64,000 nucleotides of DNA, taken from an uncultured bacterium. Lineage in GTDB: Bacteria > Patescibacteriota > Patescibacteriia > Magasanikbacterales > GWA2-37-8. Shown here in pieces: positions 22,557 to 37,187 of the stretch; the stretch's first letter is position 1, and each line of letters opens with the position of its first letter. Position numbers and translations under genes: made by a program. The notes under the pieces were generated by a model that was given only the letters and a program-made list of their open reading frames with translations, was not told where the DNA came from and did no database searches. Where the stretch lies: positions 37,982-101,981 of the forward strand of contig CALCZC010000007.1 in NCBI GenBank assembly GCA_937903605.1, written 5' to 3'.

Positions 22557-22585
22557 TTGACAAAATAGTCAAAATATGCTATCAT
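22557..22585 (+). promoter_or_regulatory. Near-consensus sigma-70-type promoter (TTGACA-17-TATCAT)
   Basis: TTGACA at 22557-22562, 17-nt spacer, TATCAT at 22580-22585. Sits inside a repeat-dense 620-bp intergenic region, about 440 nt upstream of the next ORF. Confidence 0.5.
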
Positions 22586-23029
22586 ATATTGTTTAGTGCC
22601 TGGATTTTCGCTAAAATATGTTTAGACTTCGGACTACGGTCTACGGACTTCTCGGTAAGCAGAAGACTGAAGACAGTAGACTGAAGACCAATATCGCTCT
22701 TTACAATAAATGTGTGTGTTTAACCGGACTTCAGACTACAGGCTACAGACTACAAAATCTGGAGGCTGAAGACTGAAGACCGAAGACTAGTGTTAATTGG
22801 ATGAAGAGAGAAAAGTATGAAATAAGCTAGTAAGCAATAAGCTTGTAAGTCTACCTATCGGTAGACAGGCTGATAAGCTAAGAAGTTGACGAGATACAAA
22901 GCCCATGAAATAAATTTTAAAGAGGGCTGTAGTCAGAAGACTGTAGACTGAAGACCGAATTTACTTTTTTCTTTCCATCCAATTAACATATATTTTAAGC
23001 ATTACAAACAACAATACAAGGAGCGTGTC

Positions 23030-23656
23030 ATGAAGAACACCAAGAAAAACGCCTTCGCTTCCGTTTTCATCTCGTGTATCATTTTTATTACCTTTATCAC
23101 TATCACTTCATGTGGCGGTGAAGAACCGAATCTGCCTGACGACGATCAGGACAATGACGAAATCGCTGTTACCGACGATGAGCCGGTTGACAACGAACAG
23201 CCTGATGATGTAGTGGACGAAGAACCGGTTGACGATGATCAGCAGATTGATTGGTGTGGCCGTCTGGACCAGAACTATCGTCTCAGTGGTGAACCGATTT
23301 GGGAAGACCCGGAATTTCATTATGAATATCCGGTTACAATGACCAACAAAAAAGAGGGCTGTAATGTTATTTCGATGAACGAAGAACACGGCCCCTACAT
23401 TGAGTTCACTACTCAAGCTGAAAGTCTTCCGCTGGAAGGTCCTGACACCGCATATAATAACGGTTGTATCTGGTTCCTTTTCAAGCACGATCCGACTCCT
23501 TTTGGAAAAGATCAAGGACTCCTTTGGAGAAGGATTTGTCCAAAAGAACTTTTTGACAAATGGGAAGTTGAATGCCGAGAATTATCGGAAGATATTCCGG
23601 TAAAATACAAAGACGGAAATTGGTGCGCTGACTGGTGGATGGATGTCTACCGATAA
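23030..23656 (+). CDS. Acidic lipoprotein, paralog A (signal peptide + lipobox Cys, D/E-rich linker, Cys-containing C-terminal domain)
   Basis: MKNTKKNAFASVFISCIIFITFITITSCGGEEPNLPDDDQDNDEIAVTDDEPVDNEQPDDVVDEEPVDDD. Signal peptide with lipobox-like TSCGG. The N-terminal 70 aa are paralogous to the 25354 and 27619 genes. RBS AAGGAG. Confidence 0.6.
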   Translation: MKNTKKNAFASVFISCIIFITFITITSCGGEEPNLPDDDQDNDEIAVTDDEPVDNEQPDDVVDEEPVDDDQQIDWCGRLDQNYRLSGEPIWEDPEFHYEYPVTMTNKKEGCNVISMNEEHGPYIEFTTQAESLPLEGPDTAYNNGCIWFLFKHDPTPFGKDQGLLWRRICPKELFDKWEVECRELSEDIPVKYKDGNWCADWWMDVYR

Positions 23657-23671
23657 GCGTCCAAAAATTCA

Positions 23672-23708
23672 AAGAGCCAAGGCTTTCTGCCGAGGCTCTT
23701 TTTTTATT
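23672..23708 (+). terminator. Rho-independent terminator after lipoprotein A
   Basis: AGAGCCAAGGC...GAGGCTCT hairpin + TTTTTTT. Confidence 0.55.
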
Positions 23709-23761
23709 TATCCTGTGAAATTCTAAATATTTTAATATTGTAATATTTTAATATTTTATTT

Positions 23762-23931
23762 CTATTCAACTATCACACTCCCATTATATAGCACCCAGGC
23801 TTTATTTTGAGTTTGAACACAATCGTTTTGATTTACGGAAATTTCAGCATAACACCCGTTCCCCGTATAATTAGGATTCATACCTGTATCACACCTTCCA
23901 CTACACCACCCCCAATTATCCAACACCTGAA
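23762..23931 (-). pseudogene. Orphan start-less copy of the Cys-rich C-terminal module (QVLDNWGWCSGRC...NGSVIVE) found at the C-terminus of the giant protein
   Basis: 217 bp (23715-23931) are identical except for one synonymous base to 25980-26196. Reading frame gives QVLDNWGWCSGRCDTGMNPNYTGNGCYAEISVNQNDCVQTQNKAWVLYNGSVIVE* but is preceded by an in-frame TAA directly after the ATPase stop. No start or signal peptide. Confidence 0.5.
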
Positions 23932-23935
23932 AATT

Positions 23936-25141
23936 TTATATCTGCCAAGGATAAAATAAATTATTTTTATCAATCTGTTTTTCTTTATCCAAAACAACAT
24001 AATTTAAAGCGATTTGAGGATAGTTTTCCAAAAATAATTTATATTTTTCATCATTATAATTACTACTTTTTGTTTTAACTTCAAAAGCTTGTTTTTCTTC
24101 AACAATAAAGTCTACTTCTTTTTTGTCGCGTGTCCGCCAAAATTTCAAATCTTCAGTGTCATACTTATTTAACAATTGACGAAAAGCCCCATTTTCAAGT
24201 AGTTGTCCCTTATCATCACGTTCATAAAAATTATCGAAATTATTTTTGAAGAAATTACGCATACCAGAATCACCAAAATAACATTTGGGCATTTTGATTA
24301 GTTCTTTGCGTATATTTTTATAAAACGGTCGCATTAAAAAAATATGAAAACTTTTTTGCATAACCTTCAAGTATTTATCAATCGTTATTTTGGTAACTCC
24401 AAGAGTCGCAGAAAGCTCGGAAATATTTACCAGCTCCCCTACTTGCCCGCTCAATATTTTCATCAATCGGAAAAAAGTTTCCTCTTGATTTATGTCGGCT
24501 TCGTAAATATCTTTTTTGATATACGAATACGCCAAATCTTTCAAAACCTCTTGTTTCTCCGGAATACTTTTGGCCAATACTACCCGCGGATAACCCCCAT
24601 AAGTTAGATATTCCAAATATAGCGGCATTATTTTTTCTTGAAGTTGTAACGGTAATTCTTTTGATATATCTGTTTTAGACAAATCATCCTCACCTTTAAA
24701 TTTCAAAAACTCTTCAAAAGACAGAGTTAATAAATACAAAATTTTCTTTCTGCCGGCCAATGAATCTTTGAATTTTTTATCCAAATAAAAAGCAGAGGAA
24801 CCGGAAGCGATGATTTTTATTTTCCCTTTATATTCATCATAAAAATATTTCAAAAAATTAGAGGGGTCTTTTAAATATTGAATCTCATCAACAAAAAGAT
24901 AGTTCCTTTTTTCTTTATCAAAAGGAATAATATTAAATAAATTTTTCGGAGAATCATTTAAAAGACGCAAAAAATCAGGATCTTCTAAATTTAAAAAATG
25001 GCATGTATTTCCATTTTGTTTTAAATATTCAAGAGCTTGGCGCATACTGGTAGTTTTGCCAACTTGCCTGGGTCCTATGATCAACACAACTTCGTCGTTT
25101 GATAAATTTTCTTTTATATTAGCCAAAATTTTTCTTTCCAT
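23936..25141 (-). CDS. AAA+ ATPase of the AAA_14/DUF4143 family
   Basis: Walker A LIIGPRQVGKTT, Walker B YLFVDEIQ, C-terminal DUF4143-like region (YFGDSGMRN, WRTRDKKEVDFIVE). Confidence 0.75.
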   Translation of the reverse strand: MERKILANIKENLSNDEVVLIIGPRQVGKTTSMRQALEYLKQNGNTCHFLNLEDPDFLRLLNDSPKNLFNIIPFDKEKRNYLFVDEIQYLKDPSNFLKYFYDEYKGKIKIIASGSSAFYLDKKFKDSLAGRKKILYLLTLSFEEFLKFKGEDDLSKTDISKELPLQLQEKIMPLYLEYLTYGGYPRVVLAKSIPEKQEVLKDLAYSYIKKDIYEADINQEETFFRLMKILSGQVGELVNISELSATLGVTKITIDKYLKVMQKSFHIFLMRPFYKNIRKELIKMPKCYFGDSGMRNFFKNNFDNFYERDDKGQLLENGAFRQLLNKYDTEDLKFWRTRDKKEVDFIVEEKQAFEVKTKSSNYNDEKYKLFLENYPQIALNYVVLDKEKQIDKNNLFYPWQI

Positions 25142-25223
25142 ATAGTTATTTTAGATAATTTATATACTACAATATATAATATATCAGACTATTTATATTT
25201 TGTCAATATAAAAAAGATATTTT

Positions 25224-25370
25224 TCTCTTGACAATCCCTCTGTTTTATGTCAATATACGTTGTTTAGTCTCAATATCTGCGCTAAAATAAAAAATATAAA
25301 TAGCTCTTTAATAATTTTTTAATGTGTTATAAACTTTTTGCAAGGAGAGTGTCATGAAAAAGAACGCTTT
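25224..25370 (+). repeat. About 147-bp promoter/leader repeat (copy 1), identical to 27489-27635
   Basis: TCTCTTGACAATCCCTCTGTTTTATGTCAATATACGTTG...TTTTTGCAAGGAGAGTGTCATGAAAAAGAAC is shared verbatim upstream of lipoprotein genes B and C and includes a TTGACA box. Confidence 0.7.
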
Positions 25371-25851
25371 CACGGTCACGGTTGTGGCCATCGCCTTTGC
25401 CTTCATTTTCATCGCCTGTGGCGGTGAGGAACCGGAACATCCGGATGACGATCAGAACAATGACGAGATTGCTGTTACCGACGATGAGCCGGACAACGAA
25501 CAGCCCGATGATGTTATCGATGAAGAAAATCCTGATGAAGATCAAGTAGTTATCGCAAATTGCGAAAAATTACTTGACATTGTCGGAGATTGGACTAGTA
25601 TCAATATTGAAGGGTATGATATTACGGTAACAGTCACACCCAAAGAAAAAAATTGTGAAGTAGCAGTGGAATGGACCAAAGGATATTCCGGAGTACAAAA
25701 ATGGTATGGATTAGAGCTCCCCCTGACTTATTGGGAAGAGGAAGCTTATAGAAACTACACCCTGAAAAAAACCGGAGAAAATCTGGTTCGAGAAGATACT
25801 CTTAAAACTGGAGGATTTGATAATGAGTGGGTCTTCAAAAAAATTCAGTAA
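25354..25851 (+). CDS. Acidic lipoprotein, paralog B
   Basis: MKKNAFTVTVVAIAFAFIFIACGGEEPEHPDDDQNNDEIAVTDDEPDNEQPDDVIDEENPDEDQ. Lipobox FIACGG. C-terminal ~90-aa domain with 2 Cys, similar to paralog C. Confidence 0.6.
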   Translation: MKKNAFTVTVVAIAFAFIFIACGGEEPEHPDDDQNNDEIAVTDDEPDNEQPDDVIDEENPDEDQVVIANCEKLLDIVGDWTSINIEGYDITVTVTPKEKNCEVAVEWTKGYSGVQKWYGLELPLTYWEEEAYRNYTLKKTGENLVREDTLKTGGFDNEWVFKKIQ

Positions 25852-25918
25852 TTCGGATACAGGAGTCCGAATTCTGAATTTAGAGGGTAGGAAAAAAAAC
25901 ACACCCTCAAAACTTCAA

Positions 25919-25946
25919 AGCCCAGGCATTGCCTGGGCTCTTTTTT
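25919..25946 (+). terminator. Rho-independent terminator after lipoprotein B
   Basis: AGCCCAGGC ATT GCCTGGGCT + TTTTTT. Confidence 0.6.
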
Positions 25947-26026
25947 ATCCAATTTTTCTTTTCTTAATATCTTCACCCCGTGAAATTCTAAATATTTTAA
26001 TATTGTAATATTTTAATATTTTATTT

Positions 26027-26263
26027 CTATTCTACTATCACACTCCCATTATATAGCACCCAGGCTTTATTTTGAGTTTGAACACAATCGTTTTGATTTA
26101 CGGAAATTTCAGCATAACACCCGTTCCCCGTATAATTAGGATTCATACCTGTATCACACCTTCCACTACACCACCCCCAATTATCCAACACCTGAACTCG
26201 CGGGAATCTGGCGTTAATAGGACCTGAATAATAAATACTTAAATAAAATATAATATTCTTCAC
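26027..26263 (-). CDS. Orphan Cys-rich C-terminal module ORF (78 aa, no signal peptide), paralogous to the giant-protein C-terminus
   Basis: MKNIIFYLSIYYSGPINARFPRVQVLDNWGWCSGRCDTGMNPNYTGNGCYAEISVNQNDCVQTQNKAWVLYNGSVIVE. The 3' 217 bp is identical to 23715-23931. Lies directly downstream of the ATPase gene. Confidence 0.45.
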   Translation of the reverse strand: MKNIIFYLSIYYSGPINARFPRVQVLDNWGWCSGRCDTGMNPNYTGNGCYAEISVNQNDCVQTQNKAWVLYNGSVIVE

Positions 26264-26271
26264 TACAAACT

Positions 26272-27396
26272 TTAAACCAAAAACTCTAAATAATTTTCTC
26301 TATTGATCACTTTGTATTCACTCTCTGAATATGTTTTTTTCCAGTCTTTTGGTGCGTCTTTTTTAAAATTTTGCGACCATTTTATTTCAAAGGCTCGAAG
26401 CTGTCCGTCTTTATCCTCAATCAAATCTATTTCTTGTCCGGCATATGTTCGCCAAAAATAAAGATTACCATAACTTTCTTTATATTCATCTTTTTTTATT
26501 TTTTCCATTACTACAAAATTTTCAAATAATCTTCCGACATCATCTCTATCATTTAAATCATTAAATTGTGAAATTACTGCATTTCTGATACCGTTGTCTA
26601 AAAAATAATATTTAGCTTTAGTCGTAATTTCTTGGCGTAAATTGCGAGAAAAACCACCCATCCTTTTTATTACAAAACCTTTTTCCAAAATATCCAGATA
26701 TTTAGCCACCGTTTTTACATCCATTTTTATCTGCGTTGCCAATTCACTCAAAGAAACCTCATTACCAACTTGAAAAGCCAATAACTTTAACAAATTTAAA
26801 AGCTGAAAAGAGCCACGAATTTTTTCAATATTCAAAACATCTTTTAATAAATAAGAAGATACCAATTCATTGAGTATCGCAATCTTTTCTTTTTTTGTTT
26901 TTGCTAAAAATACTTCTGGATAAGAGCCAAAAATCAAAAACTCTGTAAGCTTTTCTTGTAACTCTTGTTTATTATAAACATTCAATAACTCAATTTGAGA
27001 AAAAGGATATAAAATCAAAGTTTTCTTTCTTCCGGTAAGTGGTTCCCCTATTTTTTGTTCTAAATCAAAAGAAGACGACCCTGTAACCACCACATAAATC
27101 CCTGGAATTTGGTCAACTAAAATTTTCAACGCCATACCAATGTTTGGAATATTTTGTGCTTCGTCTATGGTAATCAATTCATACCCCTCTGCATAGGCTA
27201 AAATTTTGGAAAAATCTTGAGAAGCCAGTATTTCTTGGGTTTTGATATTATCCCCAGAATCAATTTTATATTTTAATTCAGTTTTAGCCAAAAAATCGTT
27301 TAAAAGAGTTGTTTTCCCTACTCTTCTAGGCCCATAAACAACTAAAACTTTGTTTTTTTGTTTAATATTAGCCAAATTATAATATCTTGGTAACAT
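26272..27396 (-). CDS. AAA+ ATPase of the AAA_14/DUF4143 family (divergent paralog of 23936-25141)
   Basis: Walker A VVYGPRRVGKTT, Walker B LITIDEAQ, C-terminal DUF4143-like region (YFLDNGIRN, WRTYAGQEIDLIE). Confidence 0.75.
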   Translation of the reverse strand: MLPRYYNLANIKQKNKVLVVYGPRRVGKTTLLNDFLAKTELKYKIDSGDNIKTQEILASQDFSKILAYAEGYELITIDEAQNIPNIGMALKILVDQIPGIYVVVTGSSSFDLEQKIGEPLTGRKKTLILYPFSQIELLNVYNKQELQEKLTEFLIFGSYPEVFLAKTKKEKIAILNELVSSYLLKDVLNIEKIRGSFQLLNLLKLLAFQVGNEVSLSELATQIKMDVKTVAKYLDILEKGFVIKRMGGFSRNLRQEITTKAKYYFLDNGIRNAVISQFNDLNDRDDVGRLFENFVVMEKIKKDEYKESYGNLYFWRTYAGQEIDLIEDKDGQLRAFEIKWSQNFKKDAPKDWKKTYSESEYKVINRENYLEFLV

Positions 27397-27488
27397 ATAT
27401 AATCATTACTTTTTAATTAAATATAAGGATTTCTATTCCTTATATTTATTATAAAATAAAGGAATAGAAATGTCAAGAGAGAAAAATG

Positions 27489-27635
27489 TCTCTTGACAAT
27501 CCCTCTGTTTTATGTCAATATACGTTGTTTAGTCTCAATATCTGCGCTAAAATAAAAAATATAAATAGCTCTTTAATAATTTTTTAATGTGTTATAAACT
27601 TTTTGCAAGGAGAGTGTCATGAAAAAGAACATCTT
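27489..27635 (+). repeat. About 147-bp promoter/leader repeat (copy 2)
   Basis: Identical to 25224-25370. Confidence 0.7.
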
Positions 27636-28143
27636 TTCGGTCACGGTTGTAACCATTGCCTTTACCTTCATTTTCATCGCCTGTGGCGGTGAGGAACCGA
27701 ACCTTCCTGATGATGATCAAGACAACGATGAAATCGTTGTTGTCGACGATGAGCCGGACAATGAACAACCCGATGATATCGTGGACGAAGAGCCGGTTGA
27801 CGATGACCAGCTTCCGCTGGAGGAAGTTTGCAAGAATTTCCTTGACTATGCCGGAAATTGGACTATCGTTGATATGAGTTTTACCGGTGATTTCAGTGTG
27901 ACCCTCTCAGTTGAAGGAGAGGAATGCAAGATATCTGTTGTTGGCACAACGGAATTGGCATGGATTTTTGCCTGGAAAGGGAAAGAGATGCCTCTTGCAT
28001 GCGCTGAATTTGCGCCTATGACTTATTTTTTTTACCTTGTGGGGAAAAATGAAGCTGGGAGAATGATCTGGATAAAAGGTTGGGATGAAGAAAGTTGTAA
28101 AGATGCTGAAGCGGCAATGGTTATAACGCTTGAGAAAAAATAG
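27619..28143 (+). CDS. Acidic lipoprotein, paralog C
   Basis: MKKNIFSVTVVTIAFTFIFIACGGEEPNLPDDDQDNDEIVVVDDEPDNEQPDDIVDEEPVDDDQ. C-terminal domain (CKNFLDYAGNWTIVDM...ECKISVVGT) resembles paralog B (CEKLLDIVGDWTSINI...NCEVAVEWT). Confidence 0.6.
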   Translation: MKKNIFSVTVVTIAFTFIFIACGGEEPNLPDDDQDNDEIVVVDDEPDNEQPDDIVDEEPVDDDQLPLEEVCKNFLDYAGNWTIVDMSFTGDFSVTLSVEGEECKISVVGTTELAWIFAWKGKEMPLACAEFAPMTYFFYLVGKNEAGRMIWIKGWDEESCKDAEAAMVITLEKK

Positions 28144-28177
28144 CAGGAGGTAAAAATGCACACAAATACAAGCTAAA

Positions 28178-28206
28178 AGCCAGGGTAAAACCCTGGCTCT
28201 TTTTTA
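28178..28206 (+). terminator. Rho-independent terminator after lipoprotein C
   Basis: AGCCAGGG TAAAA CCCTGGCT + TTTTTTT. Confidence 0.6.
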
Positions 28207-28256
28207 TTCTTTATATCAACTTTATATACTTAATACTAAATACTTAATACTTTATA

Positions 28257-31200
28257 CTATTCTACTATTACATTTCCATTATATTCTATCCAGGGATACA
28301 TTGGAGAAGCAGGATTACCATTTTCAGGTACACAATCGCTTGCCGCACCATCTGCATAACACCCATAATTCCTTGTTCCATAAGGATTATTCGTAGTGCA
28401 TCTCCCACTACACCACCCCCAATTATCCAAAACCTGGACTCGCGGAGTACTAGTACTTGGAGTACTGGTATAAGTAAAGTGAAATTCGTATGGCGTGTTT
28501 TTGCAACCAGTACCATCTGTACCGCTCTTATTTCCAAAACTTCCCGGATCATTGTCTCCTTCTACAAAAGTAACACAGCGAGATGTTTGAACTGTCATCT
28601 TACCTCCAGCTTTCTTTTTTGCATCATAAAATACACAGTCTTCAGCTTTGTTACAAGGAATTTGATATTGATAGTTTGCTGGTTCATATTCACACCATCC
28701 AACGTGAGTACAAAGCGGTTTGCGGTTAGCAATACTGCGAGCTTCCAAAACTATTGCGGGGTCTTCGGTTTTTGTTTGATACATTATCCGACGTACCGGC
28801 ATTTGTGCCGGGTCAGCCCAAGCATAAAATTCCAGAGCCACATCGGAATTAGGACTTACGGTACAATTACCACCACTTAACAATTCATCACTACAATTTG
28901 ACTTATTAACCACTACTGTATTTAAAGCAAATGTTTTACAATCAGGTTTTCCACCTGCGGCTTTATAAGCCTCGCAATCCGCAGATCCGGGAGATAGTTG
29001 TATAGGCGCAGCAATCACTGGTGGTTTGATATTAACGTCACAACTCGAAGCCCTTTCAGGACTGGCACAATCTATTGGGGATTTAAAAGTTAATTTGGTT
29101 GGCTCCTTGAATTCATTTACCGAGCTGGTTGGGAAGACCCTGACAAACATATTTTTTAACATTTCCCCATATTTAAGGTCTTCTAAACTATAAATTCCAA
29201 ATCTAGGAAAACTAATTTCTGTTTCTATGTCATTTCTATTTTCATAAGAAATCAAGGGACTACGTACACGTTCACGTTCATCCAAATAAAAACCAAATTC
29301 ATTTGTTTTTCCCCCATAATATGTAGTCAAGAAAGGATTTGTCAAATCGGGAAAGGTAAAGTAGCCTGTCATATCCAACTTCGGTTCCTTGATGCCCTGA
29401 AAATAAGATCTATTTAAAGTATACGAATTGGTAGCAAAACGAGTGCTAGCCGTTTCATCTTTTGGAATATTGTAAACCGTATATGTTTGATCAGGATATA
29501 GCGTATCACCCATATTGGTTTTTCCTTTGATTAATCTCCAAGTAACTGGTTTGGCGTCAATGGCAATTTCAGCTGCTTGGGCACTTGCCCCTGGAGGACG
29601 ACTATTTTTTGAAACTTTGGCAAACTCTGTACAAGAACCATCAGAAAAATGTATGACAAAGAAAAAATTAATACCTGCTGTATGACCAGCATTATCATGT
29701 AAATCCAGTTGCGCACCGAGTAATTGATCATCGCTCCCCCAAATAATCCTTGCACCAAAACCATCAAAATCGGTTTCATATGAATTAGCTTCAAATTTTG
29801 TAGGACTTGTCGGCAAACCAAAAGTATCTTCTGTTTCGCTATAAAAAAACATTTTTTTCTTGTCCTTTGATTCAAAATAATCATACTCCTCACCTTCTCC
29901 TTTATTAGCCATAACCTTAACTTCCCAAATAGTTTTTCCATCCTTCTTGTAAGTACTTTTTCTTATTAATTGTTCTCTGTTATTACCATCTTTTAGCGGT
30001 ACTCCGAGTTTAGATTGCTTAATACAAACATCTTCCAAATCGTTTTCGCAATCATAACTTTTTTTATCGGTCGAATTTTTTTCTTTGGGCGAACAATCTA
30101 CTCCCTCTGTCAAATAACAACCGGTAATCTCTTTATTTTCAAAAGTAATAATGTTGTTGTTGAAAAATTGTTCTGTTGCTATTGGATTATCTGTACCATT
30201 CGCGACTATCCAGCCGGGAGACTCTCCTATACCAAAAAAATTAACCACGCCCTTTTTCTTCAATTCTTGGTAAGTTTTCCCCAAAACTAAATCTATTTTG
30301 ACCACATCTGTTTTCTTGATTTTTCCATTATTGTAAAAAGACGGTTCTGTAGCAGGAGTAAAAACACCAGTGAGTCTATCTTGAAATTCGCTGACTTTAT
30401 TATTATCAAGACTTAATGGACAATATACTCGAGTGTTATCTTTTTTTAGACTTTCAATAACTCCTTGTCTTAGAACAGGAAAAACCTTATTATCCATATC
30501 ATTGAAACATTTCAGTATATGAGCATTCGGTGGTAAATTATAAACCATGGCCGAAGAAACGTAGTTATGGTATGTAATCGTCTGAGAAGCTTGAACCATC
30601 CAATCAACTACCACACCTAGAGCTGCCACCCAACCGAATATAGAACTTACCGAAGCTGCAACAGCTGCCGCAATAGAGGCTGCAACCGCTCCGCCTATGG
30701 CTCCCGCTATACCTGTAATAAGGGCTGTCGTTCCAGCTACCATGCCAAAAGTTAAGGGGAACGAGCCACCATCAACCCAAGCAACACCTACGGCCGCATA
30801 TTTTTCCTCGTTGTTTATTGCTAATGCAGCATCTGTCATTTCTTGTGTTGAAGTAGAAAAACAAACATATTCTTCATCAATCTCATCTACGAGATATACT
30901 TCGCCAATCTTTCCTCCTGGTGTAGTTGTACAATACCCAGCATCACTCATTTGTTGAGTACATTTCAATGTATCCACTTGCATGTATGGCTTTGTACATC
31001 CTCCCCTAGTTAAATAAGCTGTTTCACACACACATCCTTTTTCCCATACCACCTGTTTGCTTGTAAAAAACTTATCACTTTTTACCATATTTATAGAAAA
31101 AGCATTGGCACCAGCTCCACCCAGATCAACGCAATTATCATTATCACCACCTAGATCACAATATTTGAAAACATCCACAGTGGTTGTCCTGCTTTCAACT

Positions 31201-34200
31201 TCTACATTTTTGGCATTATCGATCTCTCCTGCGCTAACAGGGTTACCTGCGTTAAAATAAAATTCTAAATTTGGCAAGGGTTTCAATTTTAACGGCTGAT
31301 TGGCAATACACATATATCTATCCTTGGTATCATTTCCTTCATAAGCGGCTTTTTTATCAATTATCCAAATATCCGGCGCACCAGGAGGAACCTCCACCGG
31401 CCACCAAGTCAAACAAGGATTTTGTTCTGGTTCCCCATAAAGCTTATACTTGGGATTTTTTTCTACACAATAACCTTGCCAACCTCTAACCTCGTTTACA
31501 CTTTTTTTATTAGCGCAAATTCCTCCTCCACATTGTTCGCTATTAACACACGGTGTTCCTTCGGTTTCAAGCGAACCGCCAATACAAATACTTTGGGATT
31601 CCCTTTCTGTCCCTAAAGGAAAATAAACAAACTGGTTATTATATTCTACTTTTTTATAACTACAATCACAGGAATCCTCTTTATTTACAGTGGTACAAAT
31701 TTCTAAAGCCTTATTTTTAACAAGATATGCGTAAGCACTCCTAGAAACAGGTGTCACTCCTTCGATTGTTTCAATAATACCCCATGGATCAAATGGACTG
31801 TTTTCTTCCGGATAACCACGACAAGAAAGTTCACCGGAAGTCCTGAGTTTGCCACGATTTCTTATCATATTATTTTCTATTCCACCGGTAATAGGATATA
31901 TACACTCTCCACCTAAACACAAACCTTCTTTATTTAAACCACAAGACTTTGTCATGGTATTATCAAACTTGTTACATTCCTGAACATTTCCTTGACCAGG
32001 GACAAAAATATTTCCACTATTTTCCCAATGGACCAAGCGCGGTTCAAAATAAACACCTTCTTCTCCACTACTTTGCACCAAATTACCCACATTATATGGT
32101 TCAACATCGTTCATACGAATATACCTTACTCCCAAAGACGGAATCTGATAAGAATTGTGTAAAGTATAACCACTTAATTCCGGATCTGCCCAATTAACAC
32201 CTCTGCTTCTATAATTACTGGTGGTTATTTTTGAATTTCTCCAAGCCCAGCTATCCAAAGTAACATTTTGATCGCAATTTCCTTCTGAAAACATACCTGG
32301 GAGAGATTTACTACACAAACCAAAGCTATAGCATCTGGCTTTATCATCTTCTACTTGATAATTGTTACAATACATCCAAAGATTGCATTCGCGATCACGG
32401 GCAACTTTTACCAAAATATTGGCGTCTCTAGTCTCTGTTTCTACCGGTGGCACCGGAGCTCCTTTGACCGCGTTGGAAGCCTCATAAGTAGCTTCTGTGT
32501 TATATTTTTTATTTGGATTATTTACTTGATCAAGTAATACACAACCATAATTCACACTCGCGCCATTGGGACATTCTTCGTTTATTTTTTCACTCAATTT
32601 CCCATTATCAATGAGATAGTAAGAATTGGCAGCCGGAATACAAGTATCCCCTTGTTGAGAGCTGCAATCTTTATCGTATTCACATTTCATCCCTGATATG
32701 CTGCATTTTTTAACCGAAACATCGTTATGATCGTCAAATCTAGAACAACCATCTTGAGAAGAAGGGCACTCGCCTACATAGCCTCTGTAGCTTGTCGTAT
32801 TACCAAACGGTGGCAAAGAAATGCCAAGACCGGTAGCACAAACCTGTGTTTCATCATCTTTTAACACCCATTTACCGATTTTGGAATTACCAACGGTTTC
32901 CTCTTTATAAACACAAACTTTTTTACCAATGTTTTCCGGATCTTTAAAATAATAATTTCCTGAACCGGAACGCCAAACATCACACCCTTCAGCTTCTTTG
33001 GTACAGAGAATTCCACGATTATTACTACCTGACGATTCATAGCGAGTAGGATCGTTGATAATATAGGCATCTTCAAAAACGTATGTATTGGTGACATTTT
33101 TATATCCTTTACCCATCAAAGTACAGCCAACATTGTCTTTGTTACAAAAATTATTTACATTATCATTTTTTCTAATTGTCAAATAAATAGGCGAACTTGT
33201 TGGAGAAGTCTGTTTATAAACCAAAACCGTTGAAGTGGTAAACGCAGCACCGGTTAAAGAGCTTTGTCCGATACCGGAAGCATTTACATAACAACCGCCT
33301 TCGCCATCGGGCACAATACAATCATAATTTATACCGTTGATTTGAATAGTTGGTTTATTGCCAACCTCCGGTTTTTGTAAACCTAGATTAAATATCTGCC
33401 AAGTGGTGCTGGCGATATTACTACCTTTATTGTAAGTATCAACCAAACGAGTACAACCAATAGCCCCATCTCTGCAAAGATAACTGAAATTGTGTAAATA
33501 AATATTATCTTTACTAAGCGGAGATTTGTAAGCACGACAACCCAAGGCAGAACCTGGGAGGTTATCTTTTTGATCAAGATCGCATGATGCAGGAACCGAA
33601 AGTTTATCTTTTACCAGATAAACTGTGTCGTCTATACTTTTTAACGAAACATTATCCAAGAAGATAACTCCTCCAGCTCTATTATAATCTAAAAATATTA
33701 TATGAGCCCCTTCACCAGATGGCACACTCCCGCTAATAGCGGGATTACTTATTACGAATTCATAACGACGCCAATTGTCTGTCAAATTAACAGTTCCAAC
33801 ATTGTAGGTAAAGCCATTACCCAAAGTGATATCCCATCTTTTTGTACCTTTGGCTAAGAAAGAAAGTGAATAAACTCCGGTATTTTTTATATCCGTATTA
33901 TAATGTCTAAAACCTCGAGTAGCAGTACCGCTATTTGCCGCCACTGTAACTTTCAAAGATTTACCAAAATTGGATAACGTTTCTTCTGACAAAGAGATGG
34001 TAGTACCATTGTCAGCACTTTCGCTTGTCTTCCACCAGCCCCTTTTTGTATTGGAAACCATATTAGTCAAACCGATACCAGAGTCAAAACTATATGTAGG
34101 GAAAATATCTCTTATATTATTACCAGTGTTACCTTGATATTTGCGACATGATACTTTGTCTTGAGAACAAATTTTACTTTCAGCCCCACCAGCAACCACA

Positions 34201-37187
34201 ATATTTTGAGGTAAACCGTTGTAAATACAAAAACCTGTTGCCGTATCATAAAAAACAACATTGTCATTGCTGGCTGCGTTTTTCAAACCATCAAAACCAC
34301 CTAGACAATTTGTTTTGTTGCCGGAAATATCATAAAATTCAGATTTTACCGCTCTATACGGCGTACATTTATCCGATACTACCACTGTCTTGCTAAAATA
34401 AGCGTGATAAACTATACCTTGATCATCACGAAAAGCCCGACAATCTCCGGAAATGTCTGTTGCAGCAGTAGTAGAATTACAAGGAGCCATACCTGATTTT
34501 TCCGCTGGATCACGAAAATATTGAGCCGGCTGTTCACCGTTTTTGAGCAAAGTATAACTCTTGAGTTTATAACCTCCCCCTTCTCTTCCTTCGTAAGTAT
34601 AAAAATTCTTTTGTCTATTTTGATCCGGAGTCATGCACAGCCGCAAATCGCTGTAATATTCTGTCTGCACATTGCCGCCGGCAGTCACATTGAGATTTAC
34701 AAAAGCACTACAACCCTCTTCCTCCGAATCACATGTTGCTTCAACTTTGGGAATAATATAAACCAAGTCGTTGCCGTTACTATATTTGGTTTTCATTTCT
34801 TTATAAGAATTGTACCCTTCGCAAACAGATGGACATTCATCGTTCATAACAATTCCCCCGCTAACGTTTGCACGTCTAATAAACTTACCAACTATAGTTT
34901 CTTCTTTTGAACCTTCAAAAACAGCTAGAGGTAACTTGGTATACTGATTACAGCCTTCTTCTTCCGGTAAACAAATTCCGGCGTAATTAGCACATTCTGC
35001 CGGATTAACCGGTTTGATTTGATTAAGTTCTGATAAAGTTCTCGGCCATTGGATACCATTGTCCGGATTACTGTCTTTATCATAACAGCGTAAATAGTCC
35101 GGGGCTTTTTTGATAAATAATTCCTGACCAATTTCTTTGGTATTGGAAGCGTTGGTAATAACTGAAAATACTCGACTACAGCCGGCATTCTCGGCTTTGC
35201 ATGTCAAAACTTGATTATTAAAAAAATAAGAATAATTATTGCGAAAAGCACCGATTCCATCGGGAGTAGTGCTTGACAAAGCAGTAATATTTATTGTTGG
35301 AGAATATTTTTCTTGCCATTGTCCTACATTATTTTTATAAGCGGTGAAAAAGGTACAGCCAGCATTTTGTTCACTACACCAAGTATTGTCCAAGGTCTTC
35401 TGTAAATAAGTGACATTTTTACCTTTGGAAGAAGTAAATGATTTGCATGTATCATATTGACTGTCGCAATAATCAGCATTAAAGCGCCAAATATTTTTTT
35501 CTTCTAAACAATAACCATAAGCATTACAATTTCCTTTACTGTCATAGCCTACGCAACTCTGTAAATCCGCGCATTCTTCTTGTCTTATGGATATATCATC
35601 GTCAATTGTTCGTCCAGTATAAACAATCGCTTTACATCTAGTTTTTGGCATTTTCAATATCCAGTTGGGATTTACCATTTTATAATACTTAGAAGATGGA
35701 TTGTGAAAACCAGCCAAAACCTCAGAAAGTTTTGGTGGTGTTCCGGTTGCAGTTGCGGCTAAAATTTCCATACCTAACGGCCAGACTCTGGCTTTGCGCA
35801 ATACTTTGATATTGTCATAACAATAGGCTGATTCATAACATCTATCCCCTTTTGAAGCTATGCTTTCATCGGTTTGAAGACCTATTATTTGATGATCATC
35901 TATTTTTTCATATTGCAACGCTTCAGCAATTGTTAGAGGTCGCCCGTTCATATCAACCTCGCGTAAATAATCAGCAAATTTTTCATCCAAAATACAATTT
36001 TCCGCTGTATCACTACTATCATGATTACAAGTTCTAAAAAGAGCGAGTAAATCGTAATTATCATCGGATTTATTTTTAGCAATCAAAAGATCAGCAAAAA
36101 TCATTGCTGCTTCTTGTCGGAAAGTAGAAGCTCTAGCATCTTCATAATATCCTTCGGCAGTATATTTACTCTCTACACAAGTATCTATAGCTAGACCACC
36201 TATTTTCAAATAACTCGGGACACATTTGATTTTTCCTAAACCAAACGGGAACATCCCTTTATTAACAAAATTATCCACCATGGTACCGGCAAAAGTATTG
36301 ATGAAAGTGGCTGCAGCATTTTTCAGAACCTGGATACTTCCTTTTGTCAAAGCCGCTCCCATATAGACAGCGGTAGTTTGTTTTTCCGATTCGGCTTTTG
36401 CCGCCGGACCCGAACCGCGCAGTGTATCTCTATTAACTTCTGCCGGAGTCAAAACATCTTTGGAAATCAAAGAACTGAGAGCCTTGGTTCCTCCGTCTGA
36501 AGTACGCTCAGCTTTGGCTGCTTCCTCGGCTTTGAGAGTATAATCATCAATTTTACCTTTAGCTGCCAATCCTATACCCATATCAGTATCTGTAATATCC
36601 AAAGAAGCATTAAAAGTTTTGGAAAAATTTTCTCCATTGGCTCCCCAATATTTACTCTTGATGCCTTCAGCACTATAATTATCACGTAATTGTTGCCAGG
36701 TACAAGACGGTTTTTCTAAATCTGAATAACCCAAGTGCAAACCCATTTTCAAAGCCAAATCTAACTTCACATCCGGTAAGGCGCAAAGATTGAAGCCTAT
36801 ACCCTGTCCAAAACTATCTAATGCCGTTCCCAAAGCATCGCTGGCCACACCGGCAAAATAATTTCCTACGCTTTTCCTGTGAAACAACGGTGATTGCCCC
36901 CAATTTCCCGAAGCCAAAGAAACCGCCAAATCATAAGAAACTTTATTCAACATATAATCAACTCCTTTTACCACACCCAGCATTACCGCATCTAGAAGAT
37001 TATTCTTTATTTTGGTTAAGTTTTTTTCCAATTGTTCTCTGATAGTTTGTCCGGCTTGTTGGCTTTCAACCCCAGGAGCCGCGACCGTAAGCTGAGCTTT
37101 GGCTGAAGAAAAAGGTATAAGAGAAAAACAAAAAATAAGCAGAAGAAAAATTGCTATCAGCTTATTTATATTATTAAAAAATTTCAT
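28257..37187 (-). CDS. Giant secreted Cys-rich surface protein (2976 aa) with an internal Gly/Ala-rich two-TM hairpin and the conserved C-terminal NWGWC module
   Basis: Signal peptide MKFFNNINKLIAIFLLLIFCFSLIPFSSAKA. Many Cys throughout. Hydrophobic GSFPLTFGMVAGTTALITGIAGAIGGAVAASIAAAVAASVSSIFGWVAALGVVVDW (about nt 30600-30770). C-terminus PRVQVLDNWGWCSGRCTTNNPYGTRNYGCYADGAASDCVPENGNPASPMYPWIEYNGNVIVE. Confidence 0.7.
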   Translation of the reverse strand: MKFFNNINKLIAIFLLLIFCFSLIPFSSAKAQLTVAAPGVESQQAGQTIREQLEKNLTKIKNNLLDAVMLGVVKGVDYMLNKVSYDLAVSLASGNWGQSPLFHRKSVGNYFAGVASDALGTALDSFGQGIGFNLCALPDVKLDLALKMGLHLGYSDLEKPSCTWQQLRDNYSAEGIKSKYWGANGENFSKTFNASLDITDTDMGIGLAAKGKIDDYTLKAEEAAKAERTSDGGTKALSSLISKDVLTPAEVNRDTLRGSGPAAKAESEKQTTAVYMGAALTKGSIQVLKNAAATFINTFAGTMVDNFVNKGMFPFGLGKIKCVPSYLKIGGLAIDTCVESKYTAEGYYEDARASTFRQEAAMIFADLLIAKNKSDDNYDLLALFRTCNHDSSDTAENCILDEKFADYLREVDMNGRPLTIAEALQYEKIDDHQIIGLQTDESIASKGDRCYESAYCYDNIKVLRKARVWPLGMEILAATATGTPPKLSEVLAGFHNPSSKYYKMVNPNWILKMPKTRCKAIVYTGRTIDDDISIRQEECADLQSCVGYDSKGNCNAYGYCLEEKNIWRFNADYCDSQYDTCKSFTSSKGKNVTYLQKTLDNTWCSEQNAGCTFFTAYKNNVGQWQEKYSPTINITALSSTTPDGIGAFRNNYSYFFNNQVLTCKAENAGCSRVFSVITNASNTKEIGQELFIKKAPDYLRCYDKDSNPDNGIQWPRTLSELNQIKPVNPAECANYAGICLPEEEGCNQYTKLPLAVFEGSKEETIVGKFIRRANVSGGIVMNDECPSVCEGYNSYKEMKTKYSNGNDLVYIIPKVEATCDSEEEGCSAFVNLNVTAGGNVQTEYYSDLRLCMTPDQNRQKNFYTYEGREGGGYKLKSYTLLKNGEQPAQYFRDPAEKSGMAPCNSTTAATDISGDCRAFRDDQGIVYHAYFSKTVVVSDKCTPYRAVKSEFYDISGNKTNCLGGFDGLKNAASNDNVVFYDTATGFCIYNGLPQNIVVAGGAESKICSQDKVSCRKYQGNTGNNIRDIFPTYSFDSGIGLTNMVSNTKRGWWKTSESADNGTTISLSEETLSNFGKSLKVTVAANSGTATRGFRHYNTDIKNTGVYSLSFLAKGTKRWDITLGNGFTYNVGTVNLTDNWRRYEFVISNPAISGSVPSGEGAHIIFLDYNRAGGVIFLDNVSLKSIDDTVYLVKDKLSVPASCDLDQKDNLPGSALGCRAYKSPLSKDNIYLHNFSYLCRDGAIGCTRLVDTYNKGSNIASTTWQIFNLGLQKPEVGNKPTIQINGINYDCIVPDGEGGCYVNASGIGQSSLTGAAFTTSTVLVYKQTSPTSSPIYLTIRKNDNVNNFCNKDNVGCTLMGKGYKNVTNTYVFEDAYIINDPTRYESSGSNNRGILCTKEAEGCDVWRSGSGNYYFKDPENIGKKVCVYKEETVGNSKIGKWVLKDDETQVCATGLGISLPPFGNTTSYRGYVGECPSSQDGCSRFDDHNDVSVKKCSISGMKCEYDKDCSSQQGDTCIPAANSYYLIDNGKLSEKINEECPNGASVNYGCVLLDQVNNPNKKYNTEATYEASNAVKGAPVPPVETETRDANILVKVARDRECNLWMYCNNYQVEDDKARCYSFGLCSKSLPGMFSEGNCDQNVTLDSWAWRNSKITTSNYRSRGVNWADPELSGYTLHNSYQIPSLGVRYIRMNDVEPYNVGNLVQSSGEEGVYFEPRLVHWENSGNIFVPGQGNVQECNKFDNTMTKSCGLNKEGLCLGGECIYPITGGIENNMIRNRGKLRTSGELSCRGYPEENSPFDPWGIIETIEGVTPVSRSAYAYLVKNKALEICTTVNKEDSCDCSYKKVEYNNQFVYFPLGTERESQSICIGGSLETEGTPCVNSEQCGGGICANKKSVNEVRGWQGYCVEKNPKYKLYGEPEQNPCLTWWPVEVPPGAPDIWIIDKKAAYEGNDTKDRYMCIANQPLKLKPLPNLEFYFNAGNPVSAGEIDNAKNVEVESRTTTVDVFKYCDLGGDNDNCVDLGGAGANAFSINMVKSDKFFTSKQVVWEKGCVCETAYLTRGGCTKPYMQVDTLKCTQQMSDAGYCTTTPGGKIGEVYLVDEIDEEYVCFSTSTQEMTDAALAINNEEKYAAVGVAWVDGGSFPLTFGMVAGTTALITGIAGAIGGAVAASIAAAVAASVSSIFGWVAALGVVVDWMVQASQTITYHNYVSSAMVYNLPPNAHILKCFNDMDNKVFPVLRQGVIESLKKDNTRVYCPLSLDNNKVSEFQDRLTGVFTPATEPSFYNNGKIKKTDVVKIDLVLGKTYQELKKKGVVNFFGIGESPGWIVANGTDNPIATEQFFNNNIITFENKEITGCYLTEGVDCSPKEKNSTDKKSYDCENDLEDVCIKQSKLGVPLKDGNNREQLIRKSTYKKDGKTIWEVKVMANKGEGEEYDYFESKDKKKMFFYSETEDTFGLPTSPTKFEANSYETDFDGFGARIIWGSDDQLLGAQLDLHDNAGHTAGINFFFVIHFSDGSCTEFAKVSKNSRPPGASAQAAEIAIDAKPVTWRLIKGKTNMGDTLYPDQTYTVYNIPKDETASTRFATNSYTLNRSYFQGIKEPKLDMTGYFTFPDLTNPFLTTYYGGKTNEFGFYLDERERVRSPLISYENRNDIETEISFPRFGIYSLEDLKYGEMLKNMFVRVFPTSSVNEFKEPTKLTFKSPIDCASPERASSCDVNIKPPVIAAPIQLSPGSADCEAYKAAGGKPDCKTFALNTVVVNKSNCSDELLSGGNCTVSPNSDVALEFYAWADPAQMPVRRIMYQTKTEDPAIVLEARSIANRKPLCTHVGWCEYEPANYQYQIPCNKAEDCVFYDAKKKAGGKMTVQTSRCVTFVEGDNDPGSFGNKSGTDGTGCKNTPYEFHFTYTSTPSTSTPRVQVLDNWGWCSGRCTTNNPYGTRNYGCYADGAASDCVPENGNPASPMYPWIEYNGNVIVE

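What the first reader, a model, noticed from the sequence alone, without database searches (positions are those of the whole stretch)
25224..27635. Identical ~147-bp promoter/leader blocks upstream of two lipoprotein paralogs, and a shared lipoprotein N-terminal cassette
25224-25370 and 27489-27635 are identical: TCTCTTGACAATCCCTCTG...GCAAGGAGAGTGTCATGAAAAAGAAC. All three lipoproteins (23030, 25354, 27619) then share the signal peptide + lipobox (FIACGG / TSCGG) and the D/E-rich linker DDDQ.NDEI.V.DDEP.DNEQPDDV.DEE. They diverge into unrelated C-terminal domains. This is modular shuffling of a conserved export/tether part onto variable heads. Each lipoprotein is convergent with one NWGWC module copy, which could be a cognate partner or chaperone relationship.
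Basis: seen in the sequence. Interest (0 to 1): 0.6.

Follow-up and report, generated by a model that had tools for sequence, protein, structure and literature searches.

The report
Swappable lipoprotein–giant-protein-tip cassette array
Downstream of a giant secreted protein gene in an uncultured Magasanikbacteria (CPR) genome lie three repeated units. Each pairs a tethered surface lipoprotein gene with a copy of the giant protein's last ~55 codons, and the two variable parts are exchanged together by recombination. The gene pair is conserved across that lineage and I found no description of it.

Summary
The repeat is real, with corrections. The exact identity is 142 nt (25224-25365 = 27489-27630), not 147. 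It runs from 4 nt upstream of a TTGACA -35 box to codon 4, covering promoter, 5'UTR and start codon. All three proteins have a lipobox signal peptide and a conserved ~45-aa acidic linker. The heads are not all unrelated: lipo2 and lipo3 share one predicted 8-stranded beta-barrel family, and lipo1 is at best a remote relative.

Each lipoprotein gene is convergent with a copy of the giant protein's C-terminal 'VLDNWGWC' domain. One copy is the live end of the 2976-aa gene; two are start-less orphans. PDC-S01-type AAA_14/DUF4143 ATPase genes separate the units.

This gene pair is conserved in Magasanikbacteria: 51/70 and 31/48 modules have a convergent lipoprotein, against 11% for control ORFs. 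Orphan units recur in 18 other loci.

Among close relatives, head type tracks module-core type in 13 of 15 clearly typed units. Signal peptide and ATPase types assort independently.

Best reading: a recombination-driven cassette array for two co-varying, probably interacting, surface parts. It resembles orphan toxin/immunity arrays, but no toxin is recognisable. Binding, expression and lipidation are untested. No family, structure or paper matches.

The parts
22557..22585 (+). Promoter of lipo1: TTGACA, 17-nt spacer, TGc-TATCAT (extended -10). It is the homologue of the promoter inside the identical blocks.
   Evidence: 11/12 match with TG; repeat family D7; conserved at 84-89% in relatives L017, L021, L092, L151, L153.
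22592..23029 (+). Long lipo1 leader (~440 nt), inferred from the promoter position. It carries AGACTGAAGAC-type repeats and a 27-nt inverted repeat (22791-22817 / 22962-22988). Units 2 and 3 lack it.
   Evidence: 8 motif matches, all within 22493-22955, 0.5 expected. Parts of it align to leaders in L018 (91% over 22577-23010), L092 (89% over 22792-22990) and L151 (84% over 22696-22991).
23030..23656 (+). lipo1: SP1-type signal peptide with lipobox ITSC, acidic linker, and the Cys-rich C-type head.
   Evidence: The head has only 2 homologues in 5.8 billion proteins. In L012, L151 and L153 this head is paired with gamma-type modules.
23672..23705 (.). Hairpin plus T-run between the lipo1 stop and the orphan module 1 stop; a terminator-like element.
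   Evidence: Read from the sequence: AGAGCC...GGCTCT followed by TTTTTTT. The scan did not call it.
23762..23926 (-). Orphan module 1: alpha-type copy of the giant protein's last ~54 codons. It abuts the ATPase1 stop in frame, with no start codon or ribosome-binding site.
   Evidence: The tract 23715-23931 has 1 mismatch against 25980-26196.
23936..25141 (-). ATPase1, AAA_14 + DUF4143; matches the PADLOC defence candidate PDC-S01.
   Evidence: E 3.6e-93. Orthologues in L021 (86.5%) and L151 (85%) sit next to beta-type modules.
25178..25206 (-). Promoter of ATPase1, divergent from the lipo2 promoter.
   Evidence: TTGACA-17-TATATT, 11/12, with TG.
25224..25365 (+). Identical block, copy 1. It holds a -35 box TTGACA (25228-25233), 17-nt spacer, TGt-CAATAT (25251-25256), a ~90-nt AT-rich 5'UTR, the ribosome-binding site AAGGAGAG, ATG at 25354 and codons 1-4.
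   Evidence: It is homologous to the lipo1 promoter (D7). The -10 box is weak and was not called by the scan. The leader shows no RNA structure signal (z 0.23) and no Rfam match.
25354..25851 (+). lipo2: SP2-type signal peptide, acidic linker, B-type beta-barrel head.
25919..25948 (.). Intrinsic terminator hairpin between lipo2 and orphan module 2.
26027..26211 (-). Orphan module 2 (alpha-type). Homology to the giant gene starts at ...PRVQVLDNWGWC. The ORF (26027-26263) begins 8 nt after the ATPase2 stop, with a GTG start and no Shine-Dalgarno sequence.
   Evidence: (D4, D8).
26272..27396 (-). ATPase2, AAA_14 + DUF4143 (PDC-S01). It is 32% identical to ATPase1.
   Evidence: E 7.7e-141. Its orthologue in L091 (88%) sits next to a beta-type module.
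27448..27476 (-). Promoter of ATPase2. Its -35 box forms a palindrome (27471-27498) with the -35 box of the lipo3 promoter.
   Evidence: 12/12 match; hairpin 27498-27471.
27489..27630 (+). Identical block, copy 2: promoter, 5'UTR and start of lipo3.
27619..28143 (+). lipo3: SP2-type signal peptide, acidic disordered linker, A-type head modelled as a helix plus 8-stranded barrel.
28178..28207 (.). Bidirectional terminator between lipo3 and the giant gene. It lies in a stretch that is 95-100% identical to relative L011 (sliding 60-nt windows starting 28160-28220), although both flanks are 53-80% identical.
28257..28445 (-). Live beta-type NWGWC module: the last 62 codons of the giant gene.
28257..37187 (-). 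Giant ORF, 2976 aa, Cys-rich. The N-terminus (MKFFNNINKLIAIFLLLIFCFSLIPFSSAKAQ) looks like a signal peptide by eye. No Pfam, NCBIfam or PDB match.
   Evidence: The C-terminal family is confined to Magasanikbacteria and related Patescibacteria MAGs.

Best explanation
The finding is the 5' end of a repeated unit in a cassette array downstream of a giant secreted protein gene in a Candidatus Magasanikbacteria genome.

Each unit has four parts. First, a strong sigma-70-type promoter with a short leader. Second, a lipoprotein gene encoding a signal peptide with lipobox, a ~45-aa acidic disordered tether, and a ~100-aa beta-barrel head. Third, a terminator. Fourth, on the opposite strand, the last ~55 codons of the giant gene: a disulfide-rich scaffold, VQVLDNWGWCxGxC...GCY...C...W.Y.G.V.V, with variable loops. 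Only the copy fused to the giant gene can be expressed; the other two are silent orphans. Candidate defence ATPase genes fill the gaps between units.

Because the genes are convergent, the two variable parts (lipoprotein head and giant-protein tip) lie about 110-180 bp apart. They are bracketed by conserved DNA: the promoter, signal peptide and linker on one side, the terminator in the middle, and the NWGWC-coding stretch on the other side. Homologous recombination in these conserved stretches can therefore move head and tip together. It can also homogenise the conserved parts within a genome. The 142-nt identity is one such recent conversion or duplication tract.

Shown here: the anatomy, the lineage-wide synteny, recurrent orphan units, head-tip co-variation with free assortment of signal peptide and ATPase, purifying selection on the linker, and allelic replacement between near-conspecific strains.

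Inferred: the head binds the giant protein's tip, as a membrane-tethered dock or partner; the orphans arose when incoming units displaced older tips; the promoter is active; the proteins are lipidated.
For: Repeat anatomy.

Promoter: the block starts 4 nt before TTGACA. It is homologous to the 11/12 lipo1 promoter and to a 97%-conserved promoter pair in the unrelated 45%-GC locus L027.

Synteny: 51/70 (metagenome set) and 31/48 (GTDB set) NWGWC modules have a convergent lipoprotein gene within 700 nt, against 23/215 control ORFs. Fisher p is 8e-23 and 4e-14.

Taxonomy: the 59 genome hits are MAGs titled almost entirely Magasanikbacteria or Patescibacteria, or carry a generic pipeline label; one is a Falkowbacteria MAG and one an Uhrbacteria MAG.

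Orphan units: 18 interior short-ORF modules in 18 other loci. Of the 12 with enough downstream sequence, 8 have a convergent lipoprotein. Independent multi-unit arrays are L027, L046 (units 100% identical), L013, L151 and L017. Each module type occurs as the live end in one genome and as an orphan in another: alpha in L092 and L093 versus the window; beta in the window and L011 versus L021 and L151; gamma in L012 and L151 versus L153.

Co-variation: head-module Rand index 0.84, p about 1e-4; head-signal peptide p 0.96.

Selection: paralogue linkers have pN 0.05-0.15 against pS 0.5-0.7. The leader has 0 of 142 differences, so it comes from a separate and much more recent event. ValRS of L017 versus the window has pS 0.09, yet the lipoprotein at the same position carries a different head type. 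Against L011, identity is 100% in the linker and terminator but 53-80% in the head and tip.

L092 has a single unit next to ValRS, which is probably the ancestral state.

The lipo3 head is a confident beta-barrel model on a disordered tether.
Against: No experiment or co-folding shows that head and tip bind. The AF2 model of the giant C-terminus was unusable (pLDDT 52).

Co-variation could reflect tight physical linkage and shared ancestry of the units, and the 17 units scored are not phylogenetically independent.

In this window the pairing fails once: modules 1 and 2 are identical, but the lipo1 and lipo2 heads differ. I explain this by a 217-nt conversion tract, which is a post-hoc argument. 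L017 carries a hybrid module.

About 30% of modules have no detectable convergent lipoprotein.

The -10 box in the identical block is weak (CAATAT) and was not called by the promoter scan. No transcript data exist.

Some recombinant evidence rests on short contigs that could be assembly bubbles (L010, L002).

The equal 2265-bp offset of both identical tracts is unexplained.
Confidence: 0.6

Rival explanations
1. Polymorphic effector and immunity system. The giant protein's variable Cys-knot tip is a toxic or membrane-active effector used against neighbours or hosts. The tethered beta-barrel lipoproteins are cognate immunity proteins that sequester it. Orphan tip and lipoprotein units would be displaced older pairs, with their immunity genes kept expressed.
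Confidence: 0.22
2. Ordinary tandem paralogue family. The lipoprotein genes duplicated together with neighbouring DNA, and the identical leader is simply the youngest piece. On this view the NWGWC fragments are pseudogene debris and adjacency to the giant gene has no functional meaning.
For: The units are direct repeats. The orphan modules lack starts. L046 shows a plain 100% tandem duplication.
Against: The convergent pairing is conserved across lineages with 32-57% GC, at about 6 times the control rate. Orphan reading frames are intact through to the conserved C-terminus in all cases scored. Head and tip co-vary while the signal peptide, equally adjacent to the head, does not. Divergence is mosaic, which simple duplication and decay does not predict: 0% in the leader, saturated synonymous sites in the linker, and unalignable heads.
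Confidence: 0.12
3. Assembly artefact. Strain variants of a single unit were concatenated through shared repeats by the metagenome assembler, creating a false three-unit array with 'identical' blocks.
For: Both identical tracts sit at exactly the same 2265-bp offset although the DNA between them is non-homologous. L002 joins lipo1 and its module directly to ATPase2. Strain heterogeneity exists in these samples.
Against: Four independent assemblies reproduce the junctions at 99.5-100% (L001-L004). L010, from another study, spans ATPase1, leader, lipo2 and terminator. Related species on separate contigs show the same multi-unit order with ATPases between units (L017, L018, L021, L091, L151, L153).
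Confidence: 0.04

Closest known systems
Orphan toxin/immunity arrays of polymorphic toxin systems (CdiA-CT/CdiI, Rhs-CT/RhsI). Cited from my own knowledge of Poole et al. 2011 and Zhang et al. 2012, not checked here.
   Same: A very large secreted protein has a variable C-terminus set off by an invariant junction motif (VENN or PxxxxDPxGL there, VQVLDNWGWC here). Downstream are start-less C-terminal fragments that keep the motif, each with its own small partner gene. Partner and tip types co-vary. Each tip type is live in some genomes and orphan in others. Defence and toxin-antitoxin genes are interspersed.
   Different: No toxin fold is present, only ~40 variable residues on a conserved 4-Cys scaffold. 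The partner is a lipoprotein, is convergent, and has its own strong promoter. The host is a monoderm-like CPR bacterium with no T5SS or T6SS context. Toxicity has not been shown.
Variable surface lipoprotein families of Mycoplasma (Vlp, Vsp, Vsa). Cited from my own knowledge.
   Same: Clustered paralogous lipoprotein genes share a near-identical promoter, 5'UTR and signal-peptide block but carry divergent mature regions. Recombination shuffles them. The organisms have small genomes and depend on hosts.
   Different: There is no homopolymer or invertible promoter switch: the longest runs in the leader are A6 and T6. No site-specific recombinase is nearby. The variable part is a folded barrel, not tandem repeats. 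Each gene is paired with a giant-protein tip.
Silent-cassette gene conversion systems (Neisseria pilE/pilS, Borrelia vlsE). Cited from my own knowledge.
   Same: Promoterless partial copies of the 3' variable region of an expressed surface gene lie nearby. Conserved segments flank them and could guide conversion.
   Different: There are only two cassettes, and they are identical to each other. No switching was seen among the four assemblies of this species. Each cassette carries a separately expressed partner gene.
Small beta-barrel binding or inhibitor lipoproteins (lipocalin Blc, MliC/PliC, potempins).

Membership tests
Bacterial lipoproteins (signal peptidase II substrates) | N-terminal signal peptide with a positive n-region, a hydrophobic h-region and a lipobox [LVI][ASTVI][GAS]C (PROSITE PS51257 pattern) | tested here: met
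   All three match a PS51257-type regex (ITSC, FIAC, FIAC) with 2-3 K/R residues in the n-region. SignalP and LipoP were not available.
Bacterial lipoproteins (signal peptidase II substrates) | The genome encodes Lgt and LspA | not tested
   Neither appeared among the ~30 window ORFs scanned against Pfam. The rest of the 301-kb contig and genome was not examined.
Polymorphic toxin systems (CDI/Rhs type) | A conserved junction motif separates a constant N-terminal body from a variable C-terminus | tested here: met
   P.VQVLDNWGWC.G.C is invariant across 13 aligned sequences, and the variable core follows it.
Polymorphic toxin systems (CDI/Rhs type) | The C-terminal region is a recognisable toxin domain (nuclease, deaminase, pore-former and so on), with alternative folds between alleles | tested here: not met
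   No Pfam, NCBIfam or PDB sequence match. Alleles share one 4-Cys scaffold and differ only in the loops.
Polymorphic toxin systems (CDI/Rhs type) | The immunity gene lies immediately downstream on the same strand | tested here: not met
   The partner gene is convergent in the window and in 82 module-partner pairs elsewhere.
Polymorphic toxin systems (CDI/Rhs type) | Orphan C-terminus and partner modules lie downstream of the main gene | tested here: met
   Two are in the window. A further 18 orphan-like modules occur in 18 other loci.
Phase-variable lipoprotein families (Mycoplasma Vlp/Vsp/Vsa type) | A conserved 5' block (promoter, UTR and signal peptide) is shared by clustered paralogues | tested here: met
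   142 nt are identical and 300 nt are 90% identical. The same pattern occurs in L013, L027 and L046.
Phase-variable lipoprotein families (Mycoplasma Vlp/Vsp/Vsa type) | An on/off switch: a homopolymer tract in the promoter, or an invertible segment with a recombinase | tested here: not met
   The longest runs in the block are A6 and T6. The only inverted repeat near the promoter is the divergent -35 palindrome. No recombinase was found among neighbouring genes.
PADLOC candidate defence system PDC-S01 (AAA_14 + DUF4143 ATPase); applies to the spacer genes only | Full-length match to a PDC-S01 profile | tested here: met
   E 3.6e-93 and 7.7e-141, covering nearly the whole profile. Pfam finds AAA_14 + DUF4143. 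A defence function is not shown.

The most novel reading that the evidence does not exclude
The unit of tip, lipoprotein and defence gene is a mobile exchange cassette. It integrates by homology at the NWGWC junction of a giant host-interaction protein. The lipoproteins are specific blockers (immunity or exclusion factors) of the matching tip. On this view the array records successive acquisitions in an arms race between these epibiotic CPR cells and their competitors or hosts. The stand-alone copy on a 54%-GC plasmid-like replicon would then be a target organism's captured antidote.
Probability: 0.2. Interest if true: 0.85.

Novelty: new variant of a known kind. Interest (0 to 1): 0.6.

Why it matters
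Almost nothing is known about how most CPR/Patescibacteria lineages touch, recognise or fight other cells. This analysis finds a gene pair conserved across Magasanikbacteria: a ~2300-3000-aa Cys-rich secreted protein, and a membrane-tethered barrel lipoprotein encoded tail-to-tail with it. Only the two facing ends are hypervariable. They co-vary, and they are stockpiled as cassettes.

That pattern is typical of a specific protein-protein interface under diversifying pressure, such as recognition, immunity or anchoring. It offers a concrete and small experimental handle: a ~100-aa head against a ~60-180-aa tip, with cognate and non-cognate pairs already available from nature.

It also suggests why convergent gene order might be selected. 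That order places two interacting variable regions inside a single recombination patch.

Tried and rejected
1. RNA element in the identical leader. There was no Rfam match at E up to 1, and folding was no better than shuffles (z 0.23). Rejected.

2. Foreign origin of the lipoprotein genes judged from GC content. GC3 of the N-terminal cassettes is 0.53-0.55, against 0.25-0.36 for other genes. This is real but ambiguous. L017 and L011 show that the conserved cassette reflects close relatedness and that the heads are the outliers. I therefore dropped the idea that the linker block was recently transferred.

3. Fold of the giant C-terminus. The AF2 model had pLDDT 52 and was unusable.

4. The afdb50 fold library was unavailable.

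5. Origin of the L005 replicon. There was no plasmid match, and the signal-peptide DNA pattern had no hit in viral contigs.

6. Literature. Searches for NWGWC, Magasanikbacteria plus lipoprotein, CPR plus polymorphic toxin, and Patescibacteria hypervariable surface proteins found nothing relevant.

7. Homology of the lipo1 head to the A/B heads. The profile hit was only marginal, so this is left open.

8. The first dN/dS partition for L009 and L011 was mis-set by a regex and was redone. One search was an empty script.
Full report
**Observation.** The window is a 35.6%-GC chromosomal stretch of a 301-kb metagenome contig (ENA ERZ724087 NODE_28). At the stated place there is a direct repeat with a 2265-bp offset.

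- The exact run is 142 nt, 25224-25365 = 27489-27630.
- Similarity continues to 25509/27774, 300 nt at 90%, and then collapses to background.
- All three ORFs (23030, 25354, 27619) match a PS51257-type lipobox. They share GGEEP plus a ~45-aa linker with 47% D+E and net charge -21.
- Each is convergent with a copy of the motif VLDNWGWC. One copy is the true C-terminus of a 2976-aa ORF (28257-37187). Two are short fragments without starts (23762-23926, 26027-26263).
The lipo2 and lipo3 heads are homologous. The lipo1 head is at best a remote relative.

**What the identical block is.**

- It begins 4 nt upstream of a perfect -35 box (TTGACA, 25228). This is followed by a 17-nt spacer, TGt-CAATAT, a ~90-nt AT-rich 5'UTR, AAGGAGAG, the ATG and four codons.
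- It is homologous to the stronger lipo1 promoter at 22557 (TTGACA-17-TGcTATCAT).
- The same promoter type is 97% conserved between two lipoprotein paralogues in an unrelated 45%-GC relative (L027).
- The -35 boxes of the lipoprotein promoters sit back to back with those of the divergent ATPase promoters.
- The leader has no Rfam match and no folding signal.
- Between lipo2 and lipo3, divergence rises from 0 of 142 in the leader, to pS 0.28 in the signal peptide, to pS 0.71 in the linker, to unalignable heads. The leader identity is therefore a separate and recent conversion or duplication tract.
- The linker's protein sequence is held by purifying selection: pN 0.05-0.15 against pS 0.5-0.7.
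- A second near-identical tract joins orphan modules 1 and 2 (23715-23931, 1 mismatch).

**Surroundings.** The array reads as follows: ValRS; long leader and lipo1; orphan module 1; ATPase1; leader and lipo2; orphan module 2; ATPase2; leader and lipo3; giant gene.

- The two ATPases are AAA_14 + DUF4143 proteins, 32% identical to each other. They match the PADLOC candidate PDC-S01.
- Four independent assemblies reproduce the junctions.

**Wider evidence.** The giant C-terminus defines a family, P.VQVLDNWGWC.G.C...GCY...C...W.Y.G.V.V.

- Distribution: scans found 79 metagenome loci and 59 loci in GTDB species genomes. The GTDB hits are almost entirely MAGs titled Candidatus Magasanikbacteria or Patescibacteria, or MAGs with a generic pipeline label.
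- Synteny: a convergent lipoprotein gene lies within 700 nt of the module stop in 51/70 and 31/48 cases, against 23/215 for other ORFs in the same loci. Fisher p is 8e-23 and 4e-14.
- Partner architecture: partners share the same plan (lipobox, acidic or polar low-complexity tether, Cys-containing head), but their sequences differ between lineages.
- Orphan modules: these are interior copies with short ORFs. They recur in 18 other loci and are usually preceded by AAA_14/DUF4143, HEPN/MNT (HepT) or HicB genes.
- Ancestral state: L092, on a 906-kb Magasanikbacteria contig, has a single unit next to ValRS. This is probably the ancestral state.

**Shuffling and co-variation.** In the close clade I could type heads (A, B, C, D), module cores (alpha, beta, gamma and others) and signal peptides.

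| Head | Usual module core | Count | Exception |
|---|---|---|---|
| A | beta | 6/6 | — |
| B | alpha | 4 of 5 | L017 has a hybrid module |
| C | gamma | 3 of 4 | window lipo1 sits next to an alpha copy |

- The lipo1 exception is explained by the 217-nt conversion tract.
- The head-module Rand index is 0.84 with permutation p about 1e-4. Head versus signal peptide shows no association (p 0.96).
- The lipo1-type signal peptide occurs with C heads (window, L153) and with a B head (L017). The lipo2/3-type occurs with A, B and C heads (window, L151).
- ATPase1 and ATPase2 orthologues sit next to beta modules elsewhere (L021, L151, L091), whereas here they sit next to alpha modules.
- L017 is nearly conspecific (ValRS pS 0.09), yet it carries a different head at the same position.
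- Against L011, the linker and the terminator are 100% identical, while head and tip are 53-80% identical.
- Paralogues within one genome share their N-terminal cassette also in L013, L027 and L046.
- Caveat: the units are not phylogenetically independent. Some short contigs (L010, L002) could be assembly choices.

**Mechanism.** I commit to a cassette array.

- The convergent order puts the two variable ends about 110-180 bp apart.
- Three conserved stretches bracket them: promoter, signal peptide and linker; the terminator; and the NWGWC junction.
- One recombination patch can therefore exchange head and tip together.
- Conversion keeps the conserved parts uniform within a genome.
- Orphans are most simply explained as older tips displaced when a new unit recombined at the NWGWC junction, as in CDI and Rhs loci.
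- That the head binds the tip is inferred from synteny and co-variation. It is not shown.
- Whether the head is a dock or anchor, or an immunity protein, is open. I rate the immunity reading at about 0.2.

**Comparison and novelty.** The array works most like the orphan toxin/immunity arrays of polymorphic toxin systems. It fails two of their defining features, because there is no toxin domain and the partner is not co-directional. It shares the conserved 5' block of Mycoplasma variable lipoproteins but lacks their switch. No Pfam, NCBIfam, PDB or literature record matches. I class it as a new variant of a known kind.

**Unexplained.**

- Both near-identical tracts share exactly the same 2265-bp offset, even though the 1279 bp between them are non-homologous.
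- A stand-alone A-type lipoprotein sits on a 54%-GC plasmid-like replicon (L005). Its ribosome-binding site and signal peptide are 93% identical at the nucleotide level to lipo3. It lies in a low-GC pocket flanked by direct repeats.

Noticed in passing
window 23715-23931 / 25980-26196 and 25224-25365 / 27489-27630: Both near-identical tracts sit at exactly the same 2265-bp offset. The 1279 bp between them (the ATPase1 and ATPase2 segments) cannot be aligned as DNA, and the two proteins are only 32% identical with 52 gap positions. Equal length of two non-homologous segments is either a coincidence or the trace of an in-register event.
   Followed up: partly
L005 9900-10900 (also L006-L008): A 54%-GC plasmid- or ICE-like contig (ParA, RepA/RPA, RadC, ThiF-E2, DUF4942) carries an A-type lipoprotein, P0007. 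Its ribosome-binding site and signal peptide are ~93% nt-identical to window lipo3. Its GC3 is 0.52, against 0.65-0.83 for neighbouring genes. It lies in a ~1-kb low-GC pocket flanked by direct repeats GAGACAT..GATATGCGAAnTGGAAACT (9959, 10597). No NWGWC module is nearby, and the host is unknown.
   Followed up: partly
window 22418-22990: The lipo1 leader is packed with AGACTGAAGAC / GACTACAGACT-type short repeats (8 matches, all within 22493-22955, 0.5 expected). It also has a 27-nt inverted repeat (22791-22817 / 22962-22988). Parts of the leader align at 84-91% to leaders in relatives (L018, L092, L151). Its function is unknown and it has no Rfam match.
   Followed up: partly
L009 ~240-330, L011 ~110-200, L153 942-987 and 1247-1292: A GC-rich hairpin element (…CATTGCGAACCCGAAGGGTGAAGCAATCCCACGAAG…GCAGTGGGATCGCCACG…) is inserted in the lipoprotein leaders of relatives. 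It occurs twice in L153 at 98% identity and is absent from the window's leaders. It looks like a small mobile repeat.
   Followed up: no
L002 (ERZ724083, 7150 nt) vs window 23135-32505: This contig joins lipo1 and its module directly to ATPase2, skipping ATPase1 and lipo2, which is exactly one 2265-bp unit. It is either a real deletion variant produced by recombination between the module copies, or an assembler jump across the repeat.
   Followed up: partly
L010 (Logan SRR3330209) vs window 25064-26009: This is the lipo2 locus carrying the lipo3-type signal-peptide codons. Its 9 differences from the window fit the lipo3-type signal peptide of its product P0006, between exact repeats of 142 and 33 nt. 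It is either a short gene-conversion patch or a de Bruijn bubble choice.
   Followed up: partly
window 27471-27498 and 25201-25233: The -35 boxes of the divergent ATPase and lipoprotein promoters lie back to back. At 27471-27498 they form a 28-nt palindrome (TGTCAAGAGA…TCTCTTGACA). This could be a shared regulator site.
   Followed up: no
window 23936-25141 and 26272-27396; L017, L037, L151, L153: AAA_14/DUF4143 ATPases (PADLOC candidate PDC-S01) repeatedly sit immediately upstream of orphan modules. In ATPase1 the stop codon is in frame with, and directly abuts, ...QVLDNWGWC. Elsewhere, HEPN/MNT and HicB genes take the same position. The 3' end of the giant gene behaves as an insertion hot spot for defence and toxin-antitoxin genes.
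   Followed up: partly
window 46620-48215 and 48226-49788: Two tandem paralogues of cofactor-independent phosphoglycerate mutase (iPGM_N + Metalloenzyme) lie next to enolase, with phosphoglycerate kinase further along the same strand.
   Followed up: no
window 17957-18331: A 23S rRNA intervening-sequence protein homologue (PF05635, four-helix bundle) is encoded between ArgRS and TyrRS. The homologous stretch differs between the window and L017.
   Followed up: no
L150 758-8661: In one relative the giant gene is called as two ORFs, of 2304 aa and 431 aa. This is either a frameshift or stop, or a sequencing error. In L151, from a sister sample, it is continuous.
   Followed up: no
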